A stretch of DNA of 62,804 nucleotides from Balamuthia mandrillaris. Its lineage: Eukaryota. How positions within the stretch are numbered: position 1 is the first letter of the stretch; every line of letters begins with the position of its first letter. Of this stretch, positions 28,614 through 37,257 are shown in pieces. The notes under the pieces were generated by a model that was not told the DNA's origin, made no database searches, and saw only the letters and a program-made list of their open reading frames with translations. A program made the position numbers and the translations under genes. The stretch covers positions 124,001 to 186,804 of the forward strand of contig JAVKOQ020000086.1 in NCBI GenBank assembly GCA_031835245.2, in the 5' to 3' direction.

Positions 28614-31600
28614 TTACAACTTAAATACTTCGCTCTTATTAAATAGATAAAACATAGAGACAGTGTGTTCTTTGATGAAGAACATGACTGCAGACGTTAT
28701 CATCGAATGCAGCAGTTTCATCTTCAATCCGCGATGGTACATTGGTAACACCTCTCCAAAGATACTTATCACCATTCCACATCTCATTTGGTGGCGATAC
28801 CGAGGTAATTGCTTTCCTTCTTCATCTTCCTCTTCGTCGCCTTTATCTTTGAGGTTTCTGATCTCTCGAAAGTCAGAAGTTGGACACAAAAGAAGACCGG
28901 CTTGATGTCTAACTCGCAAAACTTGGATGGGGTATGTCAACGTTGTGGCTATCATTGATGACAACGCGCCGAGAGACAGGCTCAGTAACGGGAACGACAT
29001 GTGGAGTTGAGTGGACTGCAGGAATGGGACCCCATTGCTATCCACTGCGAAGAACTCCATGGCGAATCCTTCCAACATTACGTATACGTTGGACTGCACG
29101 ACTGGAAACAAAATCATCACCTAGGACGATGACAGGACATTAGGAAGGGCAGAACAAGGGAGGATTAGAAGAAGCAGAAGGAAACGGGGAATGCATGAAG
29201 AAGATGGGATGAAGAAAGAGAGAAACAAACCAAGTTAGGGAAAAGACCTCGCCAAAAGCCAACAAATCCTTCTTCCTTCCACAACCGTAGCACTTCATCA
29301 GAAAAACCCACACAATTTTCTGATGAGGGTGACGCAACTTGCAACCGAGTGATAATGACCCAAAGCGGTGTTGACACCAACACGTTCGCCACTCCACCCA
29401 TAAAAGCAGGTATCCAGCTCGTCGTTATCGTCCAGTTCTCACCATCTTCATCTGAGGAAGAGGATATAGCCGAAGAAGAGAAAGAAACAGATGAAGAGTA
29501 GGATGACATGGCGTGAAATACCAACCAAAAGATAAAGCTCGACAGACCGGCAGTCAAAATAGACAACATTCTTCCAGGCACGGATGATGAAGAGGAAGAG
29601 GAAGAAGAAGAATGTTCATGCGGCGTTTGTTGACCGCTATTGTTGGTTTGTTGCACGATAATACCAGCTGCTTGTTGGACGTGTTTCAAAAGGAGGCTGT
29701 AAGCAACGGCTTGACAAACCATTGCTCCCAACGCTCCTCCCAATGCTTTCACAAAGACTGAAGGCTCTTTGCCTTCTTCTTCTTCTTTGTTTCCTGCTTC
29801 ATTTTCATCTTCGCGACGATCGTGACGATGAGGAGAAGCATATGAAGGCAGAGATGAAGAAACAATTTTCTTCAACAGAACGCGACGCAAGATGTCCACT
29901 TCACCGACAGTGCTTTTCCACAGAGGGCCTCCTGTTTGTGCTGGCAAGAATCTGGCATACCCATCTCCTCCTTCTGCTAGCCACTCCGTCACAACTATCC
30001 ATATCCCATCCTCATCATTTACTTCCTTCCATACTTCTCCTTCCTCGTCATCTTCTTTTTGCGAATAGTAATGTCGCAACGCTTCGTCCTCTTCATTGCA
30101 TTGCTTCAACACGGCAGCTCTCAGCCAAGTCACTTTTGGTGTGGAGTTGTTGTCGGAGATGCCAAACCGAAGACCGGCTGTTTGCAAGACTGCACCTCCG
30201 TAAGAGGCAGCATCTCCTTCCAGCCCATTCATTACTCGAAGCGAACGTTCTACCATTTGACGGAGTTCTCCTCCTGTTGCCTTCAACATGACCAACTGGT
30301 TGTTCCATGGCAGCATCTCGCGAACGTGTCTGTCATGCAGCGGGCCGCTCCAAAGTTGAGATCGAATTGACCCTGATTCACGAAGAGCGATCACCAGTTC
30401 TGTTTCTTGAAGGAGTGAAGATGACGAGACTTCGCAAAGAGCATACCGGCGCATCGCGTCAGCAATGAACTTGCCCATTACGCATGGTCCCACTCTGCAA
30501 GAAGTTCGACTGTCGCTCAGCAACGTCCTTCCGACTTCTTGTTCTCGATCTTGCAGCTTATTCCTCCTCTTCTTCTTCTCTTTCTGTTTATTCCTACGCT
30601 GCACCATTTTGTCGTCTGCATCGTTATTCTCTGCTGAAACGATAGACTCGTGTCTATTTTGGATGATGGCCAATAGAGGACCCAACTGCAAAGCGTTCAA
30701 TCGAGGTTGCAACCATTCATGAACGCTCTGTTTGGTTGCAGTATGGTGAAGACGCAGCTTCTCCTCCTCCTTCGCTACTTCCACATCCATAATCACAACA
30801 TTTTCCTTCATCGCACGAAGAGCGTTCCGCTTTGACTTTGACGGAAGTGTCTCTACTCCATCTATCTCTTCCTTCCATACAAGACCGACCAACCCAAGGT
30901 ATTGCATGGAGTGGCCCGCATGAATCACTAATACCGAACCGCTTCTCCCTTCTCCTTCTCCTTCTTCAACGTGTAAGGCATGTGCATGGCCACCAAGAAT
31001 CACATTAATCAGTCCTTTCGTGCGAGCTGCAAGGAACGAGTCCAGTTCAACCCCTCCGTGGCCTAGCAGAATTACCGCATCGCAACCCTTTCTACGCAGC
31101 TCCTTTGCTTCCTCTCTTACCAACTCCAAAATGTGGTTCCTTTCGCTCACTCCAGTGAGCATTGCCGACTCTGCATCCGTATACCCCATCACCCCAATCT
31201 TCTTTGCGTGACTTGCTTCGTCATCGATGTTGACGATGACAGAGGGCTTGACTCCATTCGCTTTGACATTGACAGAAAGCACAGGAAAACCAGCACTTTG
31301 CACGAACGCTGGAATATCCGATAAGAACTCCATGTCATGATTTCCAAGGGCCATGGCCTTATAGCCCAATATCCGCATGAGATGAGCCATCCCCAAGGGA
31401 CCGTGTGCAGCGAAGAATTCGGAACCCACAAAAGAATCTCCAGCAGACAGCAGCAACACGGAAGAAGCAGAAGTTGACAATTGGCGATGCATAGTAAGAA
31501 GATCTAGATGAGCGGCGAGCAAAGGAGCCAAAGAGACGTGACCATGAACATCGCTGTTGAAGGCGATGAGGAGGTCTGCAGAGCCAACAAAGGAGGGCAA

Positions 31601-33489
31601 CGGCGATGATAATGTGATAATAGGAAGAGAAGTCGAGGAAGAAGATGAGGGAGAGAGAATCAGATTGCTGTCAGGAACCACGATAACCGTTCTCGGGTTG
31701 TGAACAGCGAGAGAGAGGAAATGAGATTCGTCTGGCGGTTCGTTCGTTTGAGGAGGAAGCAACGCAATAGGAGAAGAGGTTGGGGCGGGTGAAGCTTCAA
31801 AGGAAATACTTCCCAACTCGCACTTGATAGCAACCGCGCTTGTTTGCAAACTTCCGGCGTGGGCGCTTCTTGCTATGTTGCCCGAAGCAGGAGAAGAACA
31901 AGTTGCTATGTTCGAGGCTTTGAGTCGTTCGATGGCCTCATCAGCGAGTTTGGAGAATCGTCCCACAACGTCGTCATTCGCGTCTTTATTGTCTCCCTGC
32001 GCAACTACAACGTGGCATGATGGACCTGCTTCGGCGGAAAGATGTTCCACAAAGTCCATCACCTTTCCTTCCACTTTGGCCAGAGCTAACTGCATCCTCG
32101 TTGAATGCATTCCATCAGGATCAAACAATGACCACAACGCGGTGGAGTTTGCCTCCTTCCCTCGTCCTTGTGGGTGAAGGGGAGGATGTCGAAGCAAAGC
32201 GACAAACCCAGAACCCCTGCAATGCAGAAACTCCTCCGAAGAGTCACAAAGACAGGGAGCAAGGCTGGCCTGCCATCCCGTTCGAAACAAGGAGAGGTCC
32301 CCATGGCAAGTGTCTCTCCCTCCAGACATTGCCAAGGGCAGCTGCATCAGCTGCTGATGAGTGAGGGAAAGGAGATGTTCAGTGTCACGAACGCCGATGG
32401 GGAGGCGGGCTTGCACGTTGTCGCGCAGGTCTAGTATTTCAAATGTTGTCGTCTCGTTGTACTCAACAAATACGTGGGAAAGATACTGTAAGAAGGTGAC
32501 CACGAGAAAGTTCAGTGGCGCAGCTGCTGGCGCAAAAGAAAAGCGGAGGATACTAACCTGAACACTATCATAGCCGGCCTCGCGAGCTTTCACACGCACG
32601 AAAGGATTCACCACGTGAATTTGATGTCGTTCAGCTGGCACAGTGCTGCTCTCGTTTGTAACACACCTCCACCCTCCGCCAAAGTGATTGCATGCCTCAA
32701 CATGAGTGCTGTTGTTTTCTTAAATGAGCTGCGGAGAACGAGAAAGAGCAAGGAAGAAAAGAAGAGAGGCTGAGGATAGAAGTGAGACAAAGAGAGAGTA
32801 AAAAGAGCAGAACTAAACTGAAAAACAATTGTTTTGCCGAGGTTGTAGAAGATGCCTGTGCCAACGTTGAAGAACATCCAAAACCCTTCTGGAAGGTACT
32901 CGCAGCATCTATGAGTAACTTCTACCCACGACCCCGAAGGTATGCCCTGTGGAAACCTTCTCAGAAAAGGCCCTGATTTGTGCTGTTTCCCCCGTTCCAT
33001 ATCTCCAAATGCGTGAATGGTGTAACCATGGTCTTCTGGTTTGAGGCTTCTAAATGACTCCAGATAGACATCCCCGAATCTTACCTCAGCCCGTCGCATA
33101 CGGTCATGTAAATAACGTGCATACACGGTGCGTATGTCTTGTTTCAACCTGAGCGGGAGATGACGATGGTAGAAGAAGGTGAAGTTTCGCGTGTCGATGG
33201 GAAAGCCAAGGAGATGAGGGCCGCCGTAGACGGAGGAAAGGTAGAGGAGCCACTCTGGTTCCTGGAGGAGCTGCTGCTCGTTCCCAAAGAGAGGAAAGGC
33301 CAAGGCGCGGGTGCCGTAGAAGTTTGGTCCCCATTCAACACAGCTGTGTGCAATCGAAGGTGCCAGAGGCGTTTCTGCGCCTATTGCAGCGCAACTCAAG
33401 CAAAGCAGCGCAAAAACTGTGAGTGCGAGGTGGCGTTGCATCCGTATCGATGCGCATCGGTTCTCCTCCTTCCACCCTAGAACTAGCAT
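28614..33489 (-). CDS. Fusion protein: signal peptide + uncharacterised domain + 5'-nucleotidase/apyrase + SLC25 (PMP34-like) carrier
   Basis: Exons 33489-32819, 32708-32558, 32485-29231 and 29120-28614 join in frame through GT-AG introns. Metallophosphoesterase motifs SDVHG, AGD, LGNHD, GH, GGHAH. 5'-NT C-domain (GKFIADAMR, ESGSIRS, LPWNN, LAEGGDGY). Carrier motifs STPLWVIITRLQ, EEGFVGFWRGL, TYPIQVLRVRHQ. The start may be Met 33441. Confidence 0.8.
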
Positions 33490-33639
33490 CCGCCTCACCT
33501 AGTTCCGCCGAAAGGCACACTGTCGACACAAAACATTTTTTCGATTATTGATCGGATTGATTATTTGTCGCCTAAATTTAAAAGTTTGTAATTTTTTCGA
33601 AATATTGTGATATATTTCCGATTTAGTATCGCAATAAAC

Positions 33640-33762
33640 CTCCGGCGTGCCTAATCACGGCTTGTCTTACGACTCGCTATAAGCAACGGTGCCGGCACCA
33701 AAGCAACCTTACCGCCTACCGCCCCCTCACAGAGGAGGAGGAGGTGGTGGTAAGTGCTTGTA
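33640..33762 (-). ncRNA. Putative Fanzor omegaRNA scaffold / element right end, overlapping the ORF stop
   Basis: Long stem CAAGCA-CTTACC..CCTCCTC/TGT/GAGGGGG..GGTAAG-TGCTTTG spans the stop codon. It is followed by GGTGCCGGCACC, TTGCT-TAT-AGCGA and GTC-GTAA-GAC (GNRA loop), then a switch to AT-rich host DNA near 33640. The position matches known TnpB/Fanzor omegaRNAs. Exact ends are unknown. Confidence 0.65.
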
Positions 33763-35455
33763 ACGTAAAAAAGCGGATCAAGATGTTTCGGGAGGCGTTG
33801 GCATCTCGATCGGCCTGGTAGCCACACTCGGGTTGGGGGCACCGAAAGGTCTTGTTTCCCCCCAACTGGTGGTGGACTTGGCCGCACTTGCCGCAGGTCT
33901 TGGAGGTGTATTCCTCATCGCAGAGGCAGACCGTACAGGACGGAAATTGCTTGGCCTTGTTGAGGAGCCTCTGCCTGAAGCTATAGTGGGACCAGGTGAG
34001 CATGGCTCTGGCCGTTCGTGAGCCAATGCGTCGGTGGCCTCGCCGCACCATCTGCTGGCTCCTGAACTCTGGCAGAAGGATGAGGGAGAAGTTCCTGACC
34101 AACCAAGACACGAGCTTCTTGTGGAGGTCATCCACCAGGTTGCGGATCCTCTGGCGAAGCCGAGCAGCGGCCCTTCGGAGACGGCGCCGTTGCCTGTGGT
34201 TGACCTTGGTGCCCTTACTCTGCATGCGGTCCAGGCGGTGGCACAGCTTGCCTATCTCGTTGATGTCCGCTTTGCCCCACTCGGTGACCTCCCCGCAGCC
34301 GTTGTAGGTGGTCATGAATGTGCGCACTCCTGGATCCAAGGCGATGATGCCTGCCTCTCTCCTTCGGTGCTCACGGACTTGGCTCTCGCCCATGAGCTTC
34401 AAAGGCTGAGGCACACAGAGGTAGTAATGGCCCAGTCGAGTGTCTTTCACCAGACGAACGGCATAGAGCACCTCCGACGGAACTTTGTAGTTCTTGTCCC
34501 TCGCTTTGATTCGCGTCTCCCCGAAGAAGAGTTGGCGGATGGACTTGCTGTGGTTCCACTCCCTGGCTTGGATGCTGAGAGACTGGCTCTTGTCCTTCCG
34601 ACCACGGAACTTCATCTTGAATCCAGTCCTGCCCGCCGCCAAGCTGGTTTTCACGCCGTTGAAGAAATCATCGACGGCGTCACTGCGAATGTATCGAGGA
34701 GTTTCCAACACCCACGCAAGGCTCTTGTCCTCTCCGTTGAAATTGCCGTTATTCAGGAATTTCTCCCTGACTTGTTCCTTCATCTCCTTAAGAGGCATTC
34801 CTTTATGTTCACGATGAAACTCCACGGCCTTGTTGTAGGTCCATCGTACTGTGCCGAACCACTTGGCCAGCGTCTTCTTTTGTTCCGAGCGCGGATAAAG
34901 GCGGATCTTCTCCAATCGCCCCACTACCGGTTTCTCCTCTCCATTCTTGCCTTTTTTGGTGAGCTGTACGGCTGGGCGAGACGGAACGAGTCCCTCGATG
35001 AGGCCTAACAAGCCTTTCTGGTTTTTCTCCTCTTCTTCCTTCTCCTTCTCCTTCTCCTCTTCCTCTTCCTCCTTCTTCTCCTTCTCCTTCTTCTCCTCCT
35101 CCTCCTCCTCCTCCAACACCTTTTCTCCGTTAGGAATGTGCTTGCAGGCGGTGAACCATCCTGAACCACAGGCAAAGGGTTCTTCCAAGCACAAGGCTTC
35201 TGGGCGTATTAATCTTCTCCCGATTTCGCTGGAAAACTGGTTCCAAAAGGGCTGGGCGGGTGCAGCCTGCGGCCTTCCACGCTTCTGTGCCCTTGCCTGA
35301 GGTGCCGCTGGGGCGTTTTCCGCTCTTCTTTTCCGAGTAGCAGTGGGAGTAGAAGAAGTAGTGGTGCGACCCCCTTCCTTGTGGACCCGACCGAAGTGAA
35401 CGGCCAACCCGTGAGAGGTAGCAAACTTTTTTCGGCACTGTGGGCAACTTGCCAT
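33716..35455 (-). CDS. Fanzor2 (IS607/TnpB-derived RNA-guided endonuclease) with N-terminal C2H2 zinc finger, 579 aa
   Basis: OrfB-type HTH (KIRLYP..QKKTLAKWFGTVRWTYN), MKFRGRK, RuvC-I IIALDPGVRTF (D374), Pro at the canonical RuvC-II position (ILLPEF), alternative Glu in DEEYTSKTCGKCG (E514), Zn ribbon FRCPQPECG, RuvC-III DRDANASRNI (D551). N-terminal CPQC-x12-H-x4-H. Intronless with no stops. Confidence 0.95.
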   Translation of the reverse strand: MASCPQCRKKFATSHGLAVHFGRVHKEGGRTTTSSTPTATRKRRAENAPAAPQARAQKRGRPQAAPAQPFWNQFSSEIGRRLIRPEALCLEEPFACGSGWFTACKHIPNGEKVLEEEEEEEKKEKEKKEEEEEEKEKEKEEEEKNQKGLLGLIEGLVPSRPAVQLTKKGKNGEEKPVVGRLEKIRLYPRSEQKKTLAKWFGTVRWTYNKAVEFHREHKGMPLKEMKEQVREKFLNNGNFNGEDKSLAWVLETPRYIRSDAVDDFFNGVKTSLAAGRTGFKMKFRGRKDKSQSLSIQAREWNHSKSIRQLFFGETRIKARDKNYKVPSEVLYAVRLVKDTRLGHYYLCVPQPLKLMGESQVREHRRREAGIIALDPGVRTFMTTYNGCGEVTEWGKADINEIGKLCHRLDRMQSKGTKVNHRQRRRLRRAAARLRQRIRNLVDDLHKKLVSWLVRNFSLILLPEFRSQQMVRRGHRRIGSRTARAMLTWSHYSFRQRLLNKAKQFPSCTVCLCDEEYTSKTCGKCGQVHHQLGGNKTFRCPQPECGYQADRDANASRNILIRFFTLQALTTTSSSSVRGR

Positions 35456-36067
35456 TCAGGCCAGCTTCCAGCAGCGTTGTGGAAGAGGCGCACAGAGGTT
35501 CGTGATGCTGTTCTTTTTTAAACAAAAGAAATCATTAGTGAGTGGTTGGTAACAAATTTTTTTTCCATCATCAAAAAATGTAGTGAGCGAGCAGAGAAAA
35601 AAGAACGCTACCTTTTCAATCGGAGCGGTGCCCCTGCCTGCTGCTGAACCGCTTCGGTTTCCACCTGTGCCTCCTTCCGCCGCTGGTTTCCTCCTTGTGT
35701 AGTAGAAGCGTAGCAATGAGAAATACGGTGGTGCGTGGAGCTTCGTGGATGTGTGTGTCTGTGTGTTTACTTTTGAAAAGAAAGAAACGACAAGAAAAGA
35801 AGAGAAGAAAAGAAAACGAGTAGCAGAAAAGTGTCAAGGCGAATGACGAGTACCAAAAGTTTATTGGCGGCAGCAGCATGAGCATCCATTCCATTCACCC
35901 CACCCCACACCCCAACCCACCACTTTGCCTTCGAAGACGTGGGAGAAGGAAGGGTTGTTTTGGCGGGAAAAATGCTCATTGGCCCAAAAGACGAATGTCG
36001 GGATTTCTTTTTTGTTGTCCTTAGATCTTATGATCTTTGCGTCGCCTTACAAGCAACACTGGTGTAA

Positions 36068-36272
36068 CGCAGCGCTTCTCTTCTTCTGGACACAAAACAT
36101 GGGGAAGGGAGAAGGCAGAGCAAGCGAAGGGACTACCACACCTTTATCTACAAGGTGCTTGCACAAGCAAGTGCACCCCAACAAGAGCATCAGCAATCAA
36201 GCTATGCTCATCACGGACTCCTTCATTAGGGGCATTGCCTATCCGCTCTTGCAGGAGGCCACCATGCTGTTG
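36068..36272 (+). pseudogene. Frameshifted histone H2B-like fragment
   Basis: RRQSKRRDYHTFIYKVL + 4 extra nt (GCAC, 36161-36164) + KQVHPNKSISNQAMLITDSFIRGIAYPLLQEATML. This aligns with the H2B consensus YIYKVLKQVHP..ISSKAM.IMNSF..I..EA. No in-frame start and no C-terminal helices. Confidence 0.75.
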
Positions 36273-36330
36273 CCTGTTGTTTTTCTTTCGTTCTCGTGCT
36301 TCGTTCCTCTTCTTCATCATCTGTGTTGCA

Positions 36331-37257
36331 CTACCAACCACGAGGCAAAAACTGCTCTAACTCCTTCATGACCCGCTGAATGCCAACCACTAAAGGGGAC
36401 TCCTGGTATGTCCTGCTCCTCCACTGTTGTTGCTGTTGTTGCAGAGCTGCCTTCTTCCTCTTGATCCGGTGCAAGGAGCCATGCTTGTGGGCCTGCCACT
36501 TGAGGAAGAAAGGCATCCAGCGGGCCATCATGCACAGCAGGCAACCCCAAAGGAAACACCTCCTGGCCGCACTCCACTCCTGCCGCTTCCTCAACCTCTG
36601 CCGGTGGTCATAGTAGACCGAGTAGGTGCAGTAGCGCAGGAGGGCTCCCACAAAACACAAGAGGAAGCCCGCACGCAGGCCATAGCGCAGGGCACCCACC
36701 ACAGGGAGGAGGTAGCCCAGGTAGAGGCCCAGCAGGTGGCGTTTGGTGGCAAACTCCACGTCCACCACCGTGCTGCCCTCGTAGTGCACCAACATCACCG
36801 CGTTGCCTTCACTGTTTGTGTTGGCAGGCAAAACAAAAAAAAAGAGAGTGAATACACAAGATTAAGAAAAAGGGTGGGAGAAAGAGTAGCATGCATACAA
36901 GATTTGTTTGTGGAGGTCCCATGCTTGGAGGAGTTCTTTGTGGCGGAGACGAAGGCCCACGTTGCGCAGGTGGAAGAAAAGGGCTTTTTTGGATTGCCAA
37001 CGGTCCGGGCGGAGGGACTGCTGCTCCACGTACTGAGGGGAGAGGTAGCCCTTCCACTCGCCATGGCAGAGCTCCTGCCGGATGCGGCGCTTCCAGTGGA
37101 CCTCGTCGTTGCCGAGGGCGTGGAACCGTTTGTTGGCGAGGGTGAGGTTCAAGGCGTCGTTCTCGTTGAGGAGGACAAACACGTTGAACCATACCTCATC
37201 CGGGAGGTCGTACAGGATCGACGGCTTCTCCTCCTTCCATCTCTTTCCTCGAAACAT
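36331..37257 (-). CDS. F-box protein with two predicted C-terminal TM segments, 2 exons
   Basis: F-box LYDLPDEVWFNVFVLL..LTLANKRFHALGNDEVHW. Intron 36898-36812 joins in frame (QIF|EGNAV). Hydrophobic segments in exon 2. Confidence 0.75.

What the first reader, a model, noticed from the sequence alone, without database searches (positions are those of the whole stretch)
35000..35455. Fanzor N-terminus has a C2H2 zinc finger, an NLS-like motif and a host-style Glu/Lys repeat
Seen: MASCPQCRKKFATSHGLAVHFGRVH (classical C2H2 spacing), RKRR, KRGRP (AT-hook-like core), and a microsatellite-coded EEEEEEEKKEKEKKEEEE tract like those in neighbouring host proteins. Established: bacterial TnpB lacks such modules. 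Inference: a eukaryote-acquired DNA-binding/nuclear-import module that may bind element ends or chromatin, with long residence under ORF-preserving selection.
Basis: partly seen in the sequence, partly recalled or inferred. Interest (0 to 1): 0.7.

Follow-up and report, generated by a model that had tools for sequence, protein, structure and literature searches.

The report
Zinc-finger leader on amoebal Fanzor2
A multi-copy jumping gene of an amoeba encodes a predicted RNA-guided DNA cutter that starts with a zinc-finger motif found in none of the relatives sampled outside its own family, likely a recently captured accessory leader bolted onto an older domain that in bacterial and viral relatives is written inside the transposase gene in a second reading frame.

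Summary
The motifs are there, at the start of an intact 579-aa Fanzor2 ORF (33716-35455, minus strand). The ORF lies in a 2.4-kb IS607-type element with GG ends and no detectable transposase, from a multi-copy Balamuthia mandrillaris family.

The interval holds three different things.
(1) Residues 1-68: a canonical C2H2 motif and a bipartite-NLS-like basic pair. The finger is confined to this family (0 of 117 other proteins, 0 of 197 loci). Its source is unresolved: equally close fingers sit on haloarchaeal HNH nucleases. The AT-hook reading is weak, and N-terminal NLSs on Fanzors are published.
It is the Fanzor2 N-terminal domain. In relatives it is overprinted on tnpA in the +1 frame (70 of 71 loci; 0 stops against 223 expected). 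This scan noted that before on other DNA.
(3) The Glu/Lys tract: a linker that varies from 20 to 40 residues between copies, not a module.

Copies are 93-98% identical in the core and one strain shows an empty site: an active young family, not long domestication. Finger function is untested. Verdict: new variant of a known kind.

The parts
33639..36046 (-). Non-autonomous IS607-type element, about 2.4 kb, GG at both ends, no inverted repeats joining the ends; left flank reads TAA-GG here and mostly (T)AA-GG in other copies
   Evidence: Loose ends pile up at 36046-36050 and 33636-33638 in RNA and DNA runs; depth steps up inside these limits; none of the 25 longest inverted repeats links the ends; empty-site contig in run X13
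33716..35455 (-). Fanzor2 ORF, 579 aa, RuvC triad D374 / E514 / D551 and C4 ribbon intact
   Evidence: AlphaFold model pTM 0.74; VIA-align Z 23.3, rmsd 4.3, 427 residues aligned to 9B0L
35381..35446 (-). Single C2H2 zinc-finger motif (C4, C7, H20, H25), family-specific
   Evidence: absent outside the family; fold not confirmed by prediction
35270..35335 (-). RKRR (41-44) and KRGR (58-61), 13 residues apart: predicted bipartite nuclear import signal; AT-hook reading weak
   Evidence: positions; bipartite consensus recalled, not from a call; present in 8 of the 15 other family models
35153..35251 (-). Conserved PFW...WF block, residues 69-101: Fanzor2 N-terminal domain (RuvC-R-like), inferred descendant of a +1-frame overprint on IS607 tnpA
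   Evidence: profile of 59 relatives scores it 15.6 bits, 0 of 300 shuffles reach that; both Trp invariant in 42 rows; overprinting in relatives
35024..35113 (-). Glu/Lys trinucleotide tract, 30 residues, in the linker before the thumb/WED region
   Evidence: 20-40 residues among copies; low pLDDT; K/E-rich linkers also in P0010 and P0108
35508..35611 (-). Sense GT-AG intron upstream of the ATG; it contains three ATGs
   Evidence: joint in one contig of run X6, depth 84.6; ends and ATG list; same intron used in NCBI models
35498..35583 (+). GT-AG intron on the opposite strand: a spliced antisense, apparently non-coding transcript over the 5' end of the gene
   Evidence: 14 reads in three RNA runs plus a contig in X11, contig depth 936 in X6, zero in X1, X4, X13; no long ORF after splicing
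35131..35531 (-). Open -1 frame (the frame tnpA occupies in relatives); no detectable transposase homology
   Evidence: open over codons 1-108 with P=0.054 under synonymous shuffling
33639..33790 (-). Predicted omegaRNA scaffold overlapping the last codons of the ORF and running to the right end
   Evidence: 33620-33800 folds at z=-2.86, 0 of 200 shuffles as stable; no Rfam match; pseudoknot not resolved

Best explanation
This is the 5' end of an intact Fanzor2 gene in a multi-copy IS607-type element with no detectable transposase, and its first 68 residues are a family-specific leader, likely captured from another gene, that probably supplies a start codon, a nuclear import signal and an accessory low-specificity nucleic-acid tether in front of the old N-terminal domain. 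Shown: the motifs, the ends, the multi-copy family, transcription, absence of the finger from all relatives sampled, and overprinting of the PFW...WF block on tnpA in relatives. Inferred: in the ancestor the nuclease start lay inside tnpA; in this lineage the front of tnpA was replaced by a foreign 5' segment with spliceosomal introns and the finger, tnpA decayed, and the PFW-to-WF spacing was freed (30 residues against 40). The nuclease would use a right-end omegaRNA to cut empty (T)AA-GG sites and so keep the element, moved in trans by a serine recombinase not found here (by analogy with IS607 TnpB; untested). The finger is predicted to be dispensable for cleavage, and the Glu/Lys tract is a tolerated slippage expansion of a flexible linker.
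For: Finger in 0 of 117 proteins, 0 of 134 and 0 of 63 loci; a search with residues 1-66 returned only two family members among 45 candidates. Residues 1-68 do not match the profile of the overprinted segment they replace (-1.2 bits, 227 of 300 shuffles as good), while residues 60-115 match the N-terminal-domain profile (15.6 bits, 0 of 300). The model aligns to 9B0L from residue 67, and 9B0L works with a disordered 53-residue NLS leader (PMC11832414). tnpA lies in the -1 frame of the nuclease in 70 of 71 loci and 20 of 22 prokaryotic genome loci; +1-frame stops 0 observed against 223 expected in 62 loci. Motif spacing is 40 in 49 of 50 loci with intact tnpA, but 40 in only 17 of 28 without. 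In a quick tree the protein sits in a 12-row group (SH-aLRT 91) that includes a locus with intact tnpA. M1 is the only in-frame ATG before M220. The finger's recognition-helix positions -1, +2, +3, +6 are T, H, G, V/I, without the Arg/Asn/Gln typical of base-reading fingers (recalled rule).
Against: No source gene for the leader was found, and no host genome was available. AlphaFold did not fold the finger (pLDDT under 50 for 6-66; no beta-beta-alpha). The better-supported splice joint is antisense, the sense intron rests on one contig, and five ATGs lie further upstream, so translation from M1 is not shown. The N-terminal-domain profile did not retrieve 9B0L by sequence. The tree is a quick one with no branch of 95 or more holding this protein. 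The overprinted loci are related, so the counts are not independent events. Only 37 of the 117 proteins show the N-terminal motif, many being fragments.
Confidence: 0.6

Rival explanations
1. The finger is a passenger: it came with the captured start exon, and only the start codon and basic residues matter.
For: Sub-threshold Pfam score; not folded in prediction; the family is too young for conservation among copies to mean much; 5 of 6 listed variants in codons 1-40 are non-synonymous.
Against: All six consensus positions are intact and none of the six listed variants in codons 1-40 touches C4, C7, F11, L17, H20 or H25; the long terminal branch (0.86) would allow decay if the leader were old.
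Confidence: 0.2
2. One reading: the finger reads specific DNA (element ends, sequence upstream of the target motif, or chromatin) and has been kept by long selection, as the single N-terminal C2H2 finger of R2Bm does.
For: A single finger on the R2Bm protein binds the minor groove upstream of the cut site (PMC10499050 passages) and the window finger matches it weakly (E=1.1); similar fingers head HNH nucleases; basic clusters follow the finger.
Against: Absent from every relative outside the family; R2Bm's finger works together with a Myb domain, none here; TnpA, not TnpB, recognises IS607 ends (10.1101/2023.11.20.567912 passages); copies are young and one site is polymorphic.
Confidence: 0.13
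3. The finger arose in place, by overprinting on the remains of the tnpA active-site codons, not by capture.
For: The -1 frame is open across the finger (P=0.054) and holds a faint look-alike of the tnpA catalytic motif at about the right place: 1.4 bits, rank 9 of 930 background windows.
Against: True motifs score a median of 29 bits; the test was post hoc; the tnpA profile finds nothing in any frame; Pfam finds no resolvase; the +1-frame profile does not match.
Confidence: 0.07

Closest known systems
Acanthamoeba polyphaga mimivirus Fanzor2 (ApmFz2, PDB 9B0L; PMC11832414)
   Same: DPG / shifted Glu / RD triad, same overall fold (Z 23.3), disordered basic N-terminal leader, structured N-terminal domain; its residues 82-85 read NSWY, like the family's SWF motif, and N82/S83 contact the omegaRNA pseudoknot.
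   Different: No C2H2 finger or Glu/Lys tract is described for it; its element carries a tnpA, this one does not; target motif GGG there, (T)AA-GG inferred here.
IS607-type eukaryotic elements and cyanobacterial pro-Fanzor TnpBs (PMC3627910, PMC10711439, PMC3673617)
   Same: No inverted repeats or target duplication, GG junctions, DPG and alternative-Glu signature, conserved PFW...WF block.
   Different: tnpA lost; 5' part replaced by intron-containing sequence and a finger; motif spacing shortened to 30. The passages read mention at most that the two ORFs overlap, not a domain overprinted over more than 100 codons.
Fanzor N-terminal NLSs (PMC10530073)
   Same: Basic clusters in a disordered N-terminus; about 60% of Fanzor ORFs had a predicted NLS and 21 of 22 tested worked.
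   Different: No C2H2 or Balamuthia hit in its two supplementary text files; figure S1B on domains could not be seen.
Single N-terminal C2H2 fingers of mobile nucleases (R2Bm N-ZnF; haloarchaeal HNH endonucleases)
   Same: Similar GLx(V/I)HxGRxH-type finger ahead of a nuclease.
   Different: Similarity is at the level of any two fingers of this subtype (at most 15 of 26 residues); no homology beyond the finger; R2Bm pairs it with Myb.

Membership tests
Fanzor2 | RuvC1 DPG motif | tested here: met
   DPG at 374
Fanzor2 | Alternative catalytic Glu about six residues before the C4 ribbon, and RD after it | tested here: met
   E514 invariant in 50 rows, C521; DRD 549-551
Fanzor2 | TnpB-like fold with an extra N-terminal domain | tested here: met
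   model 67-569 aligns to 9B0L 53-518, Z 23.3, rmsd 4.3, 427 residues
Fanzor2 | Structured omegaRNA with pseudoknot at the right end | tested here: inconclusive
   stable fold z=-2.86; pseudoknot not resolved; no small-RNA data
Fanzor2 | RNA-guided DNA cleavage | not testable with these tools
   needs a biochemical assay
IS607-type element | GG core at both junctions, no inverted repeats or target duplication | tested here: met
   ends from loose reads, sequence, repeats
IS607-type element (autonomous) | Serine-recombinase tnpA in the element | tested here: not met
   tnpA profile from 63 relatives finds nothing in six frames of 35000-36046; no resolvase in Pfam for the open -1 frame
Classical C2H2 zinc finger | C-x2-C-x3-F-x5-L-x2-H-x3-5-H consensus | tested here: met
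Classical C2H2 zinc finger | Pfam gathering score and beta-beta-alpha fold | tested here: inconclusive
   16.7 bits against 27; prediction without usable alignment did not fold it
Classical C2H2 zinc finger | Zinc binding and nucleic-acid binding | not testable with these tools
   bench test
AT-hook | RGRP core with basic residues on both sides (recalled consensus) | tested here: not met
   followed by Q-A-A; no AT_hook match at E up to 1
Bipartite NLS | Two basic clusters about 10-12 residues apart (recalled consensus) | tested here: inconclusive
   RKRR and KRGR are 13 residues apart; no predictor or localisation test run

The most novel reading that the evidence does not exclude
This family is a natural zinc-finger-Fanzor fusion in which an R2-like single finger reads DNA beside the target motif and adds protein-based specificity or chromatin tethering to RNA guidance, built on an N-terminal domain that was itself born by overprinting inside the transposase gene and freed when that gene died.
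Probability: 0.15. Interest if true: 0.75.

Novelty: new variant of a known kind. Interest (0 to 1): 0.45.

Why it matters
It gives a stepwise picture of how a bacterial RNA-guided nuclease became a eukaryotic gene. The extra N-terminal domain of Fanzor2 appears to have arisen in a second reading frame of the transposase gene. After the transposase was lost, this lineage gained a foreign 5' leader with introns, a finger and an import signal. The overprinting is the stronger result (about 0.85 likely in my judgement) and is directly testable by recoding. The finger is a one-family accretion of unknown use; if it binds DNA it would be a natural precedent for adding a DNA-binding module to a compact RNA-guided nuclease.

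Tried and rejected
No whole genome is held for this window, so copy number, a partner transposase and a host source for the leader were not searched. A single-protein scan of viral contigs found nothing; the alignment scan worked. A 21-nt direct repeat near both ends (D10) was considered as an end motif and dropped: it runs past the mapped left end. AlphaFold on the finger alone gave no fold: no verdict. The N-terminal-domain profile did not find 9B0L by sequence. The ESM Atlas feature search of residues 1-66 gave small unnamed and C2H2 clusters at 0.91-0.93, a lead only; a second Atlas search could not be run. A ZNF207/SUF4-type host origin was considered from PDB hit 6j0d (E=0.0019; family label recalled) but not confirmed. 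The 13-23-nt 'introns' that I infer NCBI models use inside the finger have no matching deletion or joint in the RNA reads listed and were treated as prediction artefacts. A slippery A AAA AAG heptamer inside the finger would shift out of, not into, the nuclease frame; set aside. No sigma-70 promoter or terminator pattern in 35400-36100; no Rfam family in 33400-36300. No indexed holder was on record as RNA. Depth ratios between element and flank were not used as copy numbers. Literature searches: 'Fanzor'+'overprint' listed one paper, PMC11071296, seen as a listing only; none of the 25 papers listed of 366 mentions Balamuthia.

Full report
Observation. The interval is the 5' end of a 579-aa ORF on the minus strand, 33716-35455. 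The quoted finger, RKRR, KRGRP and the Glu/Lys tract are all present. The finger has the full classical spacing, is the only strict match in 125,604 six-frame positions of the window, and arises in 4e-5 of shuffles of residues 1-110. Pfam scores it below threshold (E=0.012). Its PDB matches are nearly all C2H2 proteins.

What the gene is. It carries DPG374, E514 and DRD549-551, the Fanzor signature described in PMC10711439 (parts 1, 3 and 4 of 7 read). The best structural match is mimivirus Fanzor2 9B0L: Z 23.3, rmsd 4.3, 427 residues, model 67-569 against chain 53-518. The closest proteins are Balamuthia mandrillaris gene models: 12 in three clusters, two more named, and one assigned by sequence.

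The element. Loose read ends pile up at 36046-36050 and 33636-33638, giving a 2.4-kb element with GG at both junctions. None of the 25 longest inverted repeats joins the ends. Most left flanks read (T)AA-GG. This fits IS607 chemistry, which needs a GG core (10.1101/2023.11.20.567912, 12 of 28 passages; PMC3627910 passages). One contig of run X13 (depth 12.5) joins the two flanks without the element, so this insertion appears polymorphic. No tnpA is detectable. The 3' end folds stably (z=-2.86) and is the likely omegaRNA.

Is the finger translated? M1 is the only in-frame ATG before M220 and a TGA precedes it, so a later start would lose the N-terminal domain and part of the core. Three RNA-seq runs of one study (3-5% of each read) put 261, 281 and 164 reads on 33000-36700, nearly all inside the element, with none on 33000-33619. 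These reads come from all copies and the library looks unstranded. A sense GT-AG intron at 35508-35611 is seen in one contig of run X6, which is labelled DNA? but which I infer to be RNA. It removes three ATGs; five more lie at 35879-35979. Against expression: the better-supported joint is an antisense GT-AG intron at 35498-35583 (14 reads; depth 936 against 85 in X6, zero in X1, X4, X13). Translation from M1 is therefore likely but not shown.

Is the finger conserved? Within the family the His half is present in 9 of the 15 other models and the Cys pair is read in frame in 2. None of the six listed variants in codons 1-40 hits a ligand or core residue. Outside the family it is absent: 0 of 117 proteins (the best 120 of 277 hits less three Balamuthia ones; only 37 show the N-terminal motif), 0 of 134 viral and metagenome loci with a long open frame, and 0 of 63 prokaryotic genome loci. 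A loose pattern flagged one locus, L155, which is not a consensus finger. A search of 1.84 billion representatives with residues 1-112 gave 49 hits: five family members and 44 others matching mainly at the finger. I scanned 27 of the 49 with Pfam; none of the 24 non-family ones has a TnpB domain and two have HNH domains. The closest fingers (at most 15 of 26 residues) come from unnamed metagenome proteins, a foraminiferan, a tapeworm and haloarchaeal HNH endonucleases. So the finger is a one-family accretion and its donor is open. A single N-terminal C2H2 finger on R2Bm binds the minor groove together with a Myb domain (PMC10499050 passages); the match to it is weak (E=1.1).

Basic motifs and Glu/Lys tract. 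N-terminal NLSs are published for Fanzors (PMC10530073 passages), and 28 of 37 relatives have a basic cluster upstream of PFW. RKRR and KRGR 13 residues apart read better as a bipartite NLS than as NLS plus AT-hook (consensus recalled). The Glu/Lys tract varies from 20 to 40 residues among copies, lies in a low-confidence linker, and has K/E-rich counterparts in P0010 and P0108. Trinucleotide slippage keeps frame by itself, so it is no evidence of selection.

Age and selection. Seven comparable copies match at 176-187 of 190 core residues, and none of the 15 other models shows both the Cys pair and DRD, though assembly errors may add to that. Of the 40 variants shown (87 more not shown), 30 lie in the ORF; 13 are synonymous against 22% expected (p=0.008). 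That fits purifying selection on source copies of an active family, not domestication of this locus. More diverged relatives (72-80% over matched stretches) and a long terminal branch (0.86) show the lineage is older than the present burst.

The conserved part. Residues 69-101 match a profile of 59 relatives (15.6 bits, 0 of 300 shuffles), while residues 1-68 do not match the segment that precedes it in relatives (227 of 300). In 151 loci with a DPG frame, 71 hold an intact tnpA, and in 70 of them it lies in the -1 frame of the nuclease, overlapping the open nuclease frame by 332-1013 nt in the 62 unique cases. Over the PFW-SWF stretch the +1 frame has 0 stops against 223 expected from synonymous recoding, while the +2 frame has 165 against 241 (62 loci). 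Spacing is 40 in 49 of 50 loci with tnpA, 40 in 17 of 28 without, and 30 here. The same arrangement holds in 20 of 22 prokaryotic genome loci with intact tnpA, mostly cyanobacterial. These loci are kin, so the counts are not independent. The block probably corresponds to the RuvC-R part of ApmFz2 (PMC11832414, parts 1-2 of 5 read): residues 82-85 there read NSWY and the model aligns from residue 67, but the profile alone did not retrieve it. I had this reading before the look-up; earlier finding e1-5378383 reports the same on a phage.

Print status. PMC3673617 (passages) says only that the two IS607 ORFs overlap. PMC10711439 has no 'overlap', 'overprint' or 'N-termin' in its main text and none of my terms in its one supplementary file. 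PMC13565253, PMC11423790 and PMC10432273 (passages) do not describe it. 'Fanzor' with 'overprint' listed one paper, seen as a listing only. The two supplementary files of PMC10530073 hold no C2H2 or Balamuthia. Figures, preprint supplements and subscription journals were not seen.

Verdict. Observation confirmed; interpretation partly supported. A standard Fanzor2 in a non-autonomous IS607-type element with a family-specific finger-and-NLS leader of unproven function, sitting on a domain that very likely arose by overprinting on tnpA. New variant of a known kind; interest 0.45.

Noticed in passing
window 33616-33638 and 36047-36050; run X13 contig 9: The empty-site allele does not read as the simple rejoined target: the six bases at the junction look like the target motif inverted. 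One contig, depth 12.5, in a diverged strain; possibly a repair footprint or an escape from cleavage.
   Followed up: no
window 33635-33645: Loose ends suggest several other copies end in GGAGGTGG(G) while this one ends at GGAGG, so two right-end GG positions may be used; the ORF's last codons hold a complementary CCACCTCC.
   Followed up: partly
window 35228-35677, + strand: Spliced antisense, apparently non-coding RNA over the finger and start codon is the best-supported spliced form; it may silence the element.
   Followed up: partly
window about 35768-35853, - strand: A second sense intron is predicted from sequence and NCBI models; reads were cut at this repeat, so it is untested. With both introns removed an upstream ORF would run in the old tnpA frame to 35131.
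   Followed up: partly
run X1, X4, X6 joints across 33718-36007: Many internally deleted copies exist (skips of 55-1699 nt), suggesting short non-autonomous derivatives.
   Followed up: no
P0063, P0076, P0087, P0088, P0097, P0099, P0100, P0119: Lipomyces yeasts carry close Fanzor2 relatives with short leaders that keep the PFW block; their DNA was not examined for tnpA.
   Followed up: partly
window 29165-32347, - strand: A 1060-codon intron-free ORF combines a 5'-nucleotidase (metallophosphoesterase plus C-terminal domain) with a mitochondrial carrier repeat.
   Followed up: no
window 36862-37257, - strand: F-box gene next to the element's left flank.
   Followed up: no
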